Source: Leptogorgia sarmentosa
Lineage: Eukaryota
DNA length: 64,000 bases
Direction of reading: 5' to 3'
Assembly: GCA_964658305.1 (NCBI GenBank)
Contig: OZ210884.1
Coordinates: 4,774,001-4,838,000 of the forward strand
The translations under genes were made by a program, and so were the position numbers. Shown in pieces: positions 25,501-61,500 of the stretch (positions are counted from its first letter, which is position 1; every line of letters starts with the position of its first letter). A model generated the notes under the pieces. It was not told the DNA's origin, did no database searches, and saw only the letters and a program-made list of their open reading frames with translations.

Positions 25501-28500
25501 GTCTATTCAAAAGCCGCCATAGTCGTATAAAGTTACCATGCGGATGAATTTTTTAGTGAGCGTTGTCATTCTCAAATTTTAATAAAACTTTGTTTAGATA
25601 TTGATGAATGTCAAAATGCATCTATTTGTCACCAAAATGCCTCTTGCGAGAACAATCCTGGATCATATACATGCACGTGCAATCCGGGCTTATCTGGAGA
25701 TGGTAAAGATTCCTGTGTTGGTAAGTTTTGTTTCAAAATCCTCCCTAGAAAGATGGGTGAACGCAACCGCAAACATAGCAATCGTATTGCTTGTTTGCAA
25801 TCACATTACTTTTTGCTGAAATGACGGGCAATTGAACAACTTGTACACGATTTTTCTCAGATTGGGTGGTTGTAGCTAGATAAACTAAACGGTTTCACAA
25901 CTATCTAAGACTTTAAATTTTTCTAACTTGTAAAATGTCTCTAATGGATCGATTTTTGTCATACTTGCCTATCAACGCCATTGCAAACAGCTAATTCGAC
26001 GATTCAACACGGTGACGTCATACTACCATCGATACATGAGGAGAGTGTCCTGGGACCAGCATGCTCCAAGGACCATAAGGAAAATGAGCTTTGCAATACT
26101 TCTTAAAACAATTACTAAGTTAGGCTTTGATCAATGTAATATTATATGTTCCGATAAGTAACCCAACAATTAGGGATAATAGGGGACAGTGTTACGCTTG
26201 AAGCTACGGTTAATAGCATGGTTGAAAATGAAATCATATTATTGTGACGCACGAGCGGGAAAAGCAGGGCGAAAATGCAAAGGAATCGGCCTGCTTTTTG
26301 CTTTACCGAAAAAAAATTCTGTTCAGCCAACGGGATTTTAACTGGAAGAATATAATGTTTTCTAGTATTTGATCCATGTGACCACGATAATTGCCACAGC
26401 AATGCTTTCTGTACCGCGAATGAAGACAACTCCTTTAACTGTACATGTGATTCGGGATACACAGGAAATGGTACATTTTGTCGAGGTACGTACAAGAAAC
26501 ATGCGTTGCAGAATTTGTTATATAGCAAGTTGACTGTAACATATTTTAATATCTTAAAAGATAGGTATTAAGAAATTCCTATATCTTCATCATCGATCGC
26601 ATGACCATTTTCTGCTAACTTTAATCGAGTTACAGAAAAGATTGATAAGAATGTTATCTTCTCGTTGTCTTTGCTAGCTACATACCTGATAAAACATTTT
26701 TTGCCAATGCGAGACCCATGCTCAATACTCGAGCAGTAGTTTTTTTCTTCACATTCCTAATTTTTGGCCATAACCCAATCATGATTGTTCCTTTAACACT
26801 ATCGGATTTGCAGGCAAGGATTACTGATATATTCTTTATGCTGCAGATATTGATGAATGCATGGAGGGCTCTTGGCCTTGCCATGCGAATGCCACGTGTG
26901 ATAATGATGTTGGGAATTTTACCTGCACGTGTAAAGATGGATTCGAAGGAAACGGGACACACTGTTCTGGTGAGTAATAAATATCTACCATACGCGTAAA
27001 TTGTGGCCATGTGTAATAGGCAATATATCAAAACTATTGTGATTGAATGAATTCCACGTTTGGCAGTTTTGCTTGGTGCCTTTTGAAGCAATGAACGCCA
27101 TAAACTTCTGCCCATAATCAAAATAGAAAACAAAAGGAGCCCAATAAAAAAACAATTGCTTGTTCATACAAAAACCAAAGCAATTCATTGTCAAGTACAA
27201 CAAGTTTCATTGTTATTTCTAATTTATCTAGAGTTAAATCAATTGTTTACGTGCTTATTTTGTAATTATAATTTGTAATTATAATATAGATATTGACGAA
27301 TGTGCTAACTCGACCTACCCTTGTCATCCTGATGCTGATTGCCACAATATTCCTGGAAATTTCACATGTATGTGCAAAGCAGGTTTCAGTGGTGATGGAC
27401 AAAGTTGTCTTGGTTAGTATCGCGTTACAGTCATGACATAACTATAGTCTAAATACTGTACATGCAGCAGCCCCTTGCTTTTCCTCTTTTTTTCTCTAAT
27501 TTGCATTGACGCAATGTGTGTGGACTATTTTTTTTTCTATAGCAATTGACTGTGACGTGTTGCAGTGTGGTGAAAATGAAGTCTGTTTAGAAGTGGATGG
27601 ATTATTCCAATGTGTTTGTCATGCTGATTACACTGGCGAAAATTGTGACCAAGAGAGTAAGCATAATATTATGATGATTAAGTACGCGATAAGTTTATAT
27701 AATATAAAATATAATCCCTTGACGTGAATATTTTAACATATAGCATGTCAAAGACATTGGATTGTATTGTTATTATCAATATCTGCGTCAGCTATCACAA
27801 TAGCCTTTAGAAGATTTTCTAAAAGTTTTTGCCCTTACCACCAAGACTCGTTTGACGTAGGGGAATCATTGCGTCAGTACGAGGCTTCGTTGTAAGACTA
27901 ATAGCCTCAGAGAAAACTTGTATTGGTGGTGTAATTGCAAGCGCACTAAAAGATAGCACTGGCACACGCAATTCAAAATTGTGAACAATTCAGCGATATC
28001 ACTTAAATCACAATGCAACGTGCTACGGAGGGAGTCCAATATTCTCAATATCTGTGCAAGGCAAACACAATGATATATTTAATTAGGTCTAATAATGTTT
28101 ATATTAGGAGATACAGATTTTGTGAAATTACACCAATGGCGTGATATCATATCCTGAACTTAAAAACGAACACGGACCGGAAGTTGAAACAATTACGATT
28201 ATGTATACTATTTAAAATGAGAGATGAGATGAGGAAAAAAGATTTCATGAATCTATCCGGAACGTGCGATTTACACCTAACTGTTGTATGTCACCACCTT
28301 TGCTATACGTGTATACACTGCATCAGTGTTCTCTACTACGTTTTTTTTCTTATTATAGTCAGAGCAACTTGTCGTGCAAGAGGAGACCCACATTACACAA
28401 CATTTGATGGAACCCATTATGACTTCATGGGCATGTGTGAATATGTCCTCGCGAAAGACTCTCGTAACGGTATCTTTGAAATTCGACAAGTAAACGAGCC

Positions 28501-58500: not shown

Positions 58501-61500
58501 AGCCATATAATATCACTCATTAATATTTCTCTGTTAATTTTTTTCACAGTTCAAGCAACATGTAAAGCAAAAGGTGACCCACACTACACCACATTTGATG
58601 GAATTCTCTATGACTTCATGGGAAGATGTGAATATGTTCTGGCTAAAGTAAACAACACATTTGAAATAAGACAAGTGAATGAACCTTGTGGAAATGGAGA
58701 ACCTTCCTGCACAAAATCACTCACCGTGATTTTCCCGGATGTATCTATCGAACTCGAGCGCGGACGTGTGGTGATAAATGGCTCGGAAATTGATTTGTCT
58801 TCACCGTATGAAGGTACCTGCTTACATCTGATTTTACAGTATTAATAATACGGAATGAAACTTGCGTTTTTGAAGATCCCTTCAAGTGTTTATCACTGTC
58901 AAGAATGATTTCGATAGAAAATGTATTTTTAATTGTTTTGCCGTTTTTTAAACCTTTTCCGACCAGATTTTTTTTGAAATAGAATATTCCAGAAATCCAT
59001 CTAATTTCGCTGTACATGATTAATATATCTAGAAGAAAAACAACCTTTCTTTTAGTACAGTTTGGAAAAACTTACAATTTCTTCTTTGTGTTTCAAGGAC
59101 CCGGCGTGAACGTTACAAAACGAATGGACGGAGAGACAGTAGTAGAAAGTGATTATGGTGTGACAGTTGAATGGAATAACGTGCATAATGTAAGAGTGAC
59201 GGTGCTTGGTCGCTATCTGAACAGAACATCAGGTTTGTGTGGGACATTTAATGGAGAATCTGGCGATGATTTCTTGGCACCAAATGGAACATCTTTAGAC
59301 AATGCAGTAGACTTTGGAAATTCTTGGAAAACTGATCCTGATTGTGAAGATGCAACAGATTTGGACCATCCATGTGACACTAATCCTGAAAGAAATGCGA
59401 GTGCTGTAGCCAACTGTTCGGCTTTGTTAACTACTCCATTTGACAGCTGTACAAGCGTGATTGATCCAGAATCGGAAGGTTATATTGAAGATTGTGAATA
59501 TGATGTATGTGGTTGTGGTGAAAATCCTACAGTCTGTCTGTGTCAAGCTATAGAGGCGTATGTCAGTGATTGTGCTGCAGAAGGAGTGGACATTGACTGG
59601 TTAAACCTTCCTCGTTATCAACAATGTAGTAAGTGATTGTCGTGCGCCATACAGTTGAATATTTTTGTACTTGCACCCATTTTGTGATGTGCAGTTTCTT
59701 TCGGGAAAGGTTTCATGGTCACGGCCGCCATAGATTCTAATTAGGTTTACTTACTTGAAATATTTATTTATTGATAAGGTTCTCCTTGTGCCAGTGCGCC
59801 GTGCTTCAATGGTGGAACCTGTTCAAATGAAGGGCAAACATTCTCCTGCTCCTGCGAAGATGGATTCACAGGTGACCGCTGCGAAACAAGAGGTAAATAT
59901 AATTTGAAATTGGAGAGAGCGATTTTGTTGAACCTTAATTGTATTATGCATGACCGTTACGGTACTATTCTACCGAATATTTATTTCTCAATATTTACAA
60001 GTTGTTACAAACGATTGTCAAATGCTGCTATTACTCAGTGTCTCACGCTTAGTTGAGCTATGTTAGGTATGAGTCTGTTGCGATAGGTGACCCGTAACCC
60101 CTTCTTGTAGTAATCGTGCTCTATTATTGGACATTTGAACAGCGTTTAGCTTCCAGGGTTTTTCTTTGGATACTCCGGATTTCCTTCTTCCTTAAATCCA
60201 GCACTCCGGAACACAAACTCTCGCATACTGACAAGCGTCACCCTCTATAGGAAGTAAGGTTAAATATAGGTGAGACAAACGTCCGAACAAGCTAAGAAAC
60301 ATACGAATTTTCCCGAATTGCTGTCTCATTCTTCCTCTTTCTTTTAAACATTATTATATTGGTAGCATGTCGTAGTATTATACATTGTTGTATCTGAACA
60401 TTCTTTTTTATGTTTTTTACATTAAATCCCTATTTAGTTTTAAGCTGTGATGACTTGACGTGTGCCGAAAATGAAATTTGTGTTGCCGATGGTGAGACAT
60501 ACCGATGTGTTTGTGACTCTGATTACGAAGGAGAGAACTGTGAAAAAATAGGTTGGTGCAGCTATATTCACTTATAATAATCTCTGTCATTAATCATTGA
60601 AGTTGTATTTATTAATGTGTTTCTTACAGGTAAAAATTCTTCTTATTTTTTAACAAAATATTTAGTGCGATCATACATGGTTTCCCTTAGCAAAAGAAAA
60701 GATTTTCTGTATGTCACGTATCTTGCGATCAAAAATCAAAGAAAAAATTGCGTTTCAAATCTTCCTTTTCTTGCTGAAACCAAGTCTTCAAGCAGGTTGC
60801 GCTGGTTATACGTACATTAACGCTCCTAATTTTTATCTTCCTTTTACCTTTTCAAAACCCAAACGCAGTTTCGAAGATAAAAGTCATAGAAATAAAATGA
60901 TTGTAATTGAAACGCAAAAAAGATTTTAGGTCTTGAAAATATTGCATCCGAAATACGCTAAGAAAATTTATCCTTTTGATGAATATTATTTTTCCAAATA
61001 ATTCTGTGTGTTTATCTGTTTTCCTGCAGTTATGAATTGACAACAGTTCAAAATTTAAAGTATAATAATTATTTATTTGCCTGTAGTTGAAGCAACGTGT
61101 AAAGCAAGAGGTGATCCACATTACACCACATTTGATGGAACACGTTTTGACTTCATGGGAAGATGTGAATATGTTCTGGCAAAAGACATTGTGAACAATA
61201 CATTTGAAATACGCCAAGCAAATGAACCGTGTTTCAGTGGATTACCTACTTGTACCAGATCATTGACAGTTATCTTCCCTGGTTTAACTATCGAACTCCG
61301 GAGAGGAGAGATTTTTGTTAATGGTACAGAAGTCACGACGCCAGCTTACTATAACGGTAGGATTTTTTTTTATTTTCAGTTGTTTTTGTTTTAGTTGAGA
61401 TGTACAGTGCACAGTGTAGGTACCTCGGAACAAATGAAAAAAAAATACTGTATACAGAATCATCATGCGAACCCCGTGTCATCATGATGTTGTGGCATTT

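What the first reader, a model, noticed from the sequence alone, without database searches (positions are those of the whole stretch)
28359..61356. All nine VWD domains carry the GDPH autocatalytic cleavage motif
Seen: C-x-A-(R/K/T)[10 protein letters not shown] in the exons at 28359, 34970, 36975, 42460, 44362, 49991, 52483, 58550 and 61087, each paired with a downstream GLCG. Known: in FCGBP, MUC2 and MUC5AC the Asp-Pro bond of GDPH self-cleaves, and the fragments stay tethered by the disulfide between the preceding Cys and the GLCG Cys; a reactive anhydride can form. Inference: the precursor would be cut into at least 10 disulfide-linked pieces, alternating a short VWD-C8-EGF2 piece with a long piece carrying one propeller, i.e. 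a self-processing, possibly cross-linking polyprotein.
Basis: partly seen in the sequence, partly recalled or inferred. Interest (0 to 1): 0.72.

Follow-up and report, generated by a model that had tools for sequence, protein, structure and literature searches.

The report
Self-nicking giant soft-coral surface protein
This gene, whose closest relatives are in soft corals, encodes a protein of over 5,200 residues with nine copies of a well-known self-cutting motif; it is likely nicked at each copy yet held together, as human gut FCGBP is, so the chemistry is ordinary and only the domain arrangement looks new.

Summary
Observation confirmed. Nine GDPH and nine downstream GLCG motifs lie in a 66-exon, stop-free model (5,291 aa, open at the window end): signal peptide, 6 complete LRP-like propellers, 34 EGF, 9 VWD-C8. 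Cuts would give pieces of 879/671/344/669/344/673/342/671/341/≥339 aa. Cysteine counts fit one tether disulfide per junction. Cleavage is likely but untested. 'All nine' is not surprising: the copies form three lineages, 320 of 571 other scorable VWDs carry GDPH, and 9 of 40 multi-VWD proteins carry it in every scored domain. Cross-linking is unlikely: in FCGBP the anhydride was hydrolysed, the Asp is buried and cleavage stabilises the fold. It is not an FCGBP (no FCGBP_N, no TIL) and not a mucin (no PTS region). The propeller-EGF-VWD-C8 arrangement turned up only in two octocorals. Both relatives with a C-terminus end in a transmembrane helix: one with a YxxL-rich tail, one after a SEA domain. 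Contig depth hints at roughly 4-11 further copies of the short unit outside the window. Known chemistry in an apparently undescribed architecture.

The parts
19523..19577 (+). First coding exon, predicted signal peptide (18 aa)
   Evidence: ATG after an AG and a GT donor; hydropathy maximum of the model at residue 1; D. gigantea P0166 starts with a hydrophobic leader and the same first propeller
20056..27656 (+). N-terminal region: propeller, 3 EGF, propeller, 6 EGF (13 exons); would be the 879-aa first piece with VWD1 strand β1
   Evidence: Gene model; Pfam EGF hits; 45% identity to P0166 over residues 1-761
28359..29633 (+). VWD1-C8 (exons 28359-28628, 29115-29633); GDPH at 28382, GLCG at 29243; most divergent copy
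30349..34430 (+). EGF, propeller, 3 EGF (long linker)
34970..36811 (+). VWD2-C8 (even type; GDPH 34993, GLCG 35682) plus 2 EGF (36467-36583, 36698-36811)
36975..41808 (+). VWD3-C8 (odd type; GDPH 36998, GLCG 37647), EGF, propeller, 3 EGF
42460..44178 (+). VWD4-C8 (even; GDPH 42483, GLCG 42955) plus 2 EGF
44362..49795 (+). VWD5-C8 (odd; GDPH 44385, GLCG 45894), EGF, propeller, 3 EGF
49991..52246 (+). VWD6-C8 (even; GDPH 50014, GLCG 51090) plus 2 EGF; closest window match to the high-depth variant contigs
52483..57912 (+). VWD7-C8 (odd; GDPH 52506, GLCG 53771), EGF, propeller, 3 EGF
58550..60551 (+). VWD8-C8 (even; GDPH 58573, GLCG 59232) plus 2 EGF
61087..64000 (+). VWD9-C8 (odd; GDPH 61110, GLCG 62365), EGF, start of a seventh propeller (63854 onward); frame open at the window end

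Best explanation
The gene encodes a predicted octocoral cell-surface or secreted glycoprotein of more than 5,290 residues whose nine VWD domains likely nick themselves at the Asp-Pro bond of GDPH during folding and likely stay one continuous, stabilised chain. Shown: the motif, the domain order, the cysteine counts and the relatives. Inferred from FCGBP: the Asp side chain attacks its own backbone in the ER or Golgi; water opens the anhydride; strand β1 stays in its sheet and is pinned by one disulfide to the GLCG cysteine; the nick makes the domain more protease-resistant. On a reducing gel the chain would fall into alternating pieces of about 37 and 74 kDa before glycans. Inferred from Dendronephthya relatives: it is most likely a type I membrane protein, a long N-glycosylated acidic glycocalyx or adhesion scaffold whose degenerate propellers may bind ligands.
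For: Motif in 9 of 9 domains. It is kept while synonymous sites between lineages approach or reach saturation (dS 1.1-3.6 or not computable), with dN/dS 0.12-0.54. The best solved match for both VWD exons is mouse FCGBP 8RDE. In FCGBP the tether is C472-C611 around D477|P478 (PMC8267560), the same Cys-5 register as here. Cys counts per exon leave no spare Cys in the internal pieces beyond one tether per junction. The AlphaFold2 model of homologue P0001 puts GDPH (569-572) in the turn between strands 562-568 and 572-574 at pLDDT about 93-96, and it matches D assemblies of MUC5AC, MUC2, VWF and FCGBP. FCGBP is cleaved at all GDPH sites, cleavage stabilises it, and the marine invertebrate protein Sfp1 is autocatalytically cut into four subunits. 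P0001 and P0014, the only relatives scanned that show a hydrophobic segment near the end, score KD19 3.3 and 2.8; P0014 has a Pfam SEA domain.
Against: No cleavage, expression or localisation data exist for this protein. GDPH is not sufficient: the MUC2 D4 site stayed uncut in the host used for cryo-EM (PMC10880436). All nine domains have Met where FCGBP D10 has Gln4094, whose mutation gave only partial cleavage. Against that worry, mouse FCGBP domains 1-3 also have Met there. The C-terminus is outside the window, so membrane anchoring rests on fragmentary D. gigantea gene models with two different ends. The disulfide pairing was not measured on the model, and the model is of a homologue, not of the window's own protein.
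Confidence: 0.7

Rival explanations
1. Clip-and-link cross-linker: each cleavage leaves an Asp anhydride that would couple to glycan hydroxyls or lysines, making the protein a multivalent covalent cross-linker of mucus or matrix.
For: The chemistry exists for ITIH3-bikunin and is proposed for bacterial RTX proteins (PMC8267560 passages). There are nine or more sites, and 8 of 9 have a Lys 3 residues before the Gly.
Against: In the VWD-C8 context it was looked for and not found: the anhydride was hydrolysed and no partner attached, there was no non-reducible link, and the Asp is buried. The FCGBP D10 crystal structure shows a free terminal carboxylate. A C-R-A-Q-GD context also occurs in non-cross-linking FCGBP.
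Confidence: 0.07
2. The motif is inherited structural sequence and is left uncut or only partly cut in this animal.
For: Recombinant MUC2 D4 was uncleaved. Met rather than Gln at Asp+14. 102 of 257 columns (40%) are invariant among the nine units, so invariance alone is weak evidence of special selection on the motif.
Against: FCGBP domains with Met are in a protein reported cut at every GDPH. 251 of 571 scorable VWDs lack GDPH and presumably still fold, so the motif is not needed for the fold, yet it is kept here and in the octocoral relatives.
Confidence: 0.13
3. Programmed weak points: cleavage leaves each junction hanging on one disulfide plus one β-strand, so thiols, sulfide or shear would shed ectodomain pieces and, in the tyrosine-tailed form, trigger signalling.
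For: One tether per junction by Cys count. Controlled dissociation by redox or shear has been suggested for FCGBP (PMC11796319). The P0001 tail has 8 YxxΦ motifs with three ITAM-like pairs. P0014 adds a SEA domain with a G-S-V motif at the usual autoproteolysis position (MUC1 GSVVV).
Against: Cleavage stabilises rather than weakens the FCGBP domain. No shedding data. The window gene's own C-terminus is unknown, and ITAM-like spacing was not tested against chance.
Confidence: 0.1

Closest known systems
FCGBP (IgGFc-binding protein)
   Same: Many tandem VWD-C8 units with GDPH (11 of 13 in human), β1 tether disulfide, internal near-identical repeats, no PTS; best PDB match. Databases label several octocoral relatives 'IgGFc-binding protein-like'.
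   Different: No FCGBP_N domain and no TIL/E domains; linkers are EGF modules and LRP-like propellers; relatives end in a transmembrane helix rather than a disulfide-dimerising VWD.
Sea star adhesive protein Sfp1
   Same: Large invertebrate VWD-C8/EGF protein reported to be autocatalytically cut into four subunits (PMC9382459, PMC4275877 passages).
   Different: Sfp1 has discoidin, galactose-lectin, TIL and FAMeT domains and is a secreted glue; here nine or more sites, propellers, and a probable membrane anchor.
Membrane VWD proteins with GDPH (MUC4, zonadhesin, cnidarian MUC4-like)
   Same: Type I membrane architecture with GDPH-type VWD. A fish protein labelled zonadhesin in the search has 9 of 9 GDPH (P0023). 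Anemone MUC4-like proteins can carry SEA (PMC9080433).
   Different: No NIDO, AMOP, MAM or PTS regions detected here.
LDLR/LRP and pro-EGF YWTD propeller-EGF receptors
   Same: About 250-aa β-propeller followed by EGF modules. Atlas features point to Ldl_recept_b clusters (0.91-0.92); LRP6 is hit by sequence (E about 3e-8), and LRP6 and megalin by fold.
   Different: The YWTD motif is degenerate (3 YWxN in the whole model), Pfam Ldl_recept_b was not hit, there are no LDL-A repeats, and the propellers are interleaved with VWD-C8.

Membership tests
GDPH self-cleaving VWD domains | Intact Gly-Asp-Pro-His in the turn between strands β1 and β2 | tested here: met
   9 of 9 by sequence; turn position in the model of homologue P0001
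GDPH self-cleaving VWD domains | Cys on β1 and Cys of GLCG available for the tether | tested here: met
   Both present in 9 of 9; pairing inferred from FCGBP C472-C611, not measured
GDPH self-cleaving VWD domains | Helper Gln at Asp+14 (Q4094 of FCGBP D10) | tested here: inconclusive
   Met in 9 of 9; Met also in mouse FCGBP domains 1-3 and in 103 of 320 GDPH VWDs
GDPH self-cleaving VWD domains | Actual D|P cleavage | not testable with these tools
   Needs proteomics or recombinant protein
FCGBP | N-terminal FCGBP_N domain (PMC4948705) | tested here: not met
   The signal peptide is followed directly by a propeller; no such family in Pfam scans of N-terminal exons or the precomputed domains of P0166
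FCGBP | VWD-C8-TIL(-E) assemblies | tested here: not met
   C8 is followed by 6-Cys EGF exons; no TIL in Pfam scans of 6 octocoral relatives; only a sub-threshold TILa hit (E 0.022) on one EGF exon
FCGBP | Many GDPH-bearing VWD domains in tandem | tested here: met
Gel-forming or transmembrane mucins | PTS-rich region | tested here: not met
   At most 28% P+T+S in any 100-aa window of the model; the part beyond the window is unseen
Gel-forming or transmembrane mucins | C-terminal cystine knot, or SEA plus transmembrane helix | not testable with these tools
   The C-terminus lies outside the window and no genome is held; relative P0014 has SEA+TM, P0001 has TM only
LDLR/LRP receptors | YWTD β-propeller followed by EGF | tested here: inconclusive
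   Related by fold and features, but the motif is degenerate, Pfam Ldl_recept_b was not hit, and model confidence in the propeller is mixed (pLDDT 26-83)
LDLR/LRP receptors | LDL-A ligand-binding repeats | tested here: not met
   None in Pfam scans of relatives; all Cys-rich exons of the model are EGF or VWD/C8

The most novel reading that the evidence does not exclude
An octocoral-specific family of giant surface receptors (over 5,300 residues, perhaps thousands more if the high-depth short units belong to the same gene) that pre-cut themselves at every VWD, so the ectodomain hangs on a chain of single disulfides. Redox change or pulling would shed it piece by piece and signal through an ITAM-like tail, with a SEA-anchored paralogue adding a second self-cleavage chemistry.
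Probability: 0.1. Interest if true: 0.65.

Novelty: new variant of a known kind. Interest (0 to 1): 0.3.

Why it matters
The GDPH cleavage is textbook and adds little. What may matter to cnidarian surface and mucus biologists is an apparently undescribed octocoral protein family that splices FCGBP-like self-nicking VWD-C8 units with LRP-like propellers. It is mislabelled in databases as IgGFc-binding protein, SCO-spondin, VWF, pro-EGF or fibrillin, and split into fragments. It offers a non-vertebrate, TIL-free test case for the open question of what GDPH cleavage is for. It also warns that proteomics of soft corals should allow semi-tryptic peptides starting at Pro-His.

Tried and rejected
No whole genome is held, so the 3' end could not be read. 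No RNA holder listed; three runs of one sample were laid as contigs and give presence only, and may be the assembly's own source. Collapse or false duplication of the nine units was rejected: the units differ (51-97% aa), introns differ, and long contigs match the window with 0-3 differences across 48-64 kb, the only part laid. FCGBP, mucin and LRP membership were rejected as above. A link to skeleton formation was not found: passages of two octocoral skeletal-proteome papers (PMC7853314, PMC11959691) name no such protein and have no 'GDPH'; their supplements were not opened and could list it. My first regex count of GDPH frequency lost many rows and was replaced by the HMM-alignment count. 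Pfam hits of the propeller halves (DUF5050, DUF5894, Staphostatin_B and others) are below cut-off or doubtful and were not used. The Sfp1 primary paper was not held. Earlier findings of this scan: none in 3 look-ups. No complex was predicted.
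Full report
Observation. 100 base shuffles give 0.16 GDPH on average, maximum 2.

Gene model. From coordinates I built 66 exons, GT-AG except one GC donor, phase 1 except the phase-2 intron inside each propeller. They translate to 5,291 residues with no stop and run off the window. Order: signal peptide (19523-19577), propeller, 3 EGF, propeller, 6 EGF, then nine VWD-C8 units. Odd units are followed by EGF-propeller-3 EGF and even units by 2 EGF. 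The model has 119 N-glycosylation sequons and is acidic. It has no PTS region (at most 28% P+T+S per 100 aa). The model is a prediction, as no RNA was available. Its N-terminus and order are backed by D. gigantea P0166 (45% over 1-761) and P0183 (65% over 836-2686, collinear).

Predicted pieces. Each VWD-C8 has 16 Cys. Each propeller after the first has one Cys and is followed by a 7-Cys EGF, which suggests a closing disulfide (inference). Internal pieces have 28 or 42 Cys, which fits full internal pairing plus one tether at each end. One spare Cys sits in the first propeller and is not conserved in P0166. The residue before GLCG is Ser, Ala or Thr, where FCGBP has a second Cys. In FCGBP the tether is C472-C611 around D477|P478 (PMC8267560, passages), the same register.

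Is nine of nine surprising? No. The units form three lineages (V1; V3/5/7/9; V2/4/6/8), 84-97% identical within and 51-63% between. In the tree, window copies and D. gigantea copies cluster separately inside the odd and even groups, and a sliding comparison shows patchwork identity among even copies. Both point to homogenisation within species. 102 of 257 columns are invariant. Among the other proteins fetched, mostly the 150 best hits of a search with P0002 and so biased towards the query, 320 of 571 scorable VWDs carry GDPH (47 gapped rows set aside). Of 40 proteins with five or more scorable VWDs, 9 have it in all, including a shark FCGBP-like protein with 12 of 12. A sponge protein has 17 GDPH. 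The motif is still under constraint: it survives near-saturated synonymous divergence, dN/dS 0.12-0.54. It is present in every octocoral VWD whose start is in the record, except one domain of P0014 that looks mis-predicted (records partly redundant).

Mechanism. I read parts 1-4 of 7 of PMC10880436. Asp and His are required, Gln4094 helps, the cut is between β1 and β2, the product has a free carboxylate, and cleavage raises protease and heat resistance. MUC2 D4 stayed uncut in a recombinant host, so the motif is not sufficient. The nine domains have Asp and His but Met at the Gln position. Mouse FCGBP domains 1-3 also have Met there, and FCGBP is reported cut at all GDPH sites (passages of PMC8267560 and PMC11796319). 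[quoted passage not shown] It matches mucin, VWF and FCGBP D assemblies, and more weakly megalin and LRP6. I put cleavage of most sites at about 0.8. Cross-linking was tested in FCGBP and not found: the anhydride was hydrolysed, no partner attached, no non-reducible link, and the Asp is buried. ITIH3 shows the chemistry can occur in another setting. I put it at about 0.07. Sfp1 is the invertebrate precedent for autocatalytic cutting (passages of PMC9382459, PMC8621496, PMC4275877; primary paper not held).

Relatives and anchor. Three word-based searches found close relatives only in Dendronephthya gigantea and Paramuricea clavata. A propeller profile built from the window hit only those among the proteins fetched by then. 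These searches are length-limited, so restriction to octocorals is suggested, not shown. D. gigantea records XP_028406460, 61, 65 and 66 share a contig length, and two other pairs lie on two further contigs. P0001 ends in 3 EGF, a transmembrane helix and a tail with 8 YxxΦ motifs including ITAM-like pairs. P0014 ends in an EGF array, SEA, EGF and a transmembrane helix. Its SEA has a G-S-V motif resembling the MUC1 GSVVV site (PMC9564314 passages). P0165 also shows propeller-EGF runs without VWD. A membrane anchor for the window's gene is therefore likely but unseen.

Further copies. Contigs of three runs from one sample match the window with 0-3 differences at depths of about 95-140, 185-212 and 97-160. 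Other contigs lay on 49650-52443, introns included, with 3-8% differences or more and depths of 897-1228, 1327-2377 and 446-1784. The tool warns that depth is not copy number, so this is only a hint of roughly 4-11 more near-identical even-type units elsewhere. All 15 differences of the X1 contig over 49678-50141 are listed and none falls in the GDPH codons. The variant skips 51959-52255, which holds the second EGF exon. Whether these units belong to this gene is unknown; if they do, strict long/short alternation would not hold throughout.

Novelty. It works like FCGBP and Sfp1 but is not a member of FCGBP, mucins or LRPs by the features tested. FCGBP_N and TIL define FCGBP (PMC4948705 passages). 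I found no description of this architecture in searches (0 papers with octocoral, mucus, mucin and GDPH) and 60. Passages of PMC7853314, PMC11959691 and PMC9080433 do not name it. Their supplements and those of PMC4948705 were not opened and may list it, and subscription journals are not searched.

Verdict. A real feature with known chemistry. Modest interest comes from the undescribed architecture, the probable membrane anchor and the possible hidden array. Interest 0.30.

Noticed in passing
window 49650-52443 (laid contigs, runs X1-X3): Variant contigs at about 4-11 times single-place depth cover EGF-VWD-C8-EGF with introns, keep GDPH and lack the EGF exon 52133-52246: a hint of a homogenised array of further short units outside the window.
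   Followed up: partly
P0001 (D. gigantea XP_028406465) residues 950-1127: Transmembrane helix and a cytoplasmic tail with 8 YxxΦ motifs, three spaced like ITAMs.
   Followed up: partly
P0014 (D. gigantea XP_028410565) residues 3175-3370: Long EGF array, SEA domain with a G-S-V motif, then a transmembrane helix: possibly two self-cleavage chemistries in one protein.
   Followed up: partly
window 8836-9879: A 1,044-bp near-perfect (95%) palindrome with nested hairpins, like a foldback or MITE element, upstream of the gene.
   Followed up: no
window 29657-29862, 30637-30850, 57421-57580, 63475-63828: Short inverted-repeat elements in introns; 57078-58679 shows very high contig depth, so likely abundant MITE-like repeats.
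   Followed up: no
window 6069-6749 (+): 227-aa open frame rich in Pro/Gln/Ser ending in a predicted coiled coil; probably an exon of an upstream gene; only a sub-threshold ERM_helical hit.
   Followed up: no
window 22044-22046: GC-AG intron donor after the second EGF exon.
   Followed up: no
P0167 (Corticium candelabrum XP_062519464): Sponge protein of 7,119 aa with about 21 VWD-C8 units, 17 GDPH and no TIL hits in the representative scanned: a similar multi-nick design.
   Followed up: no
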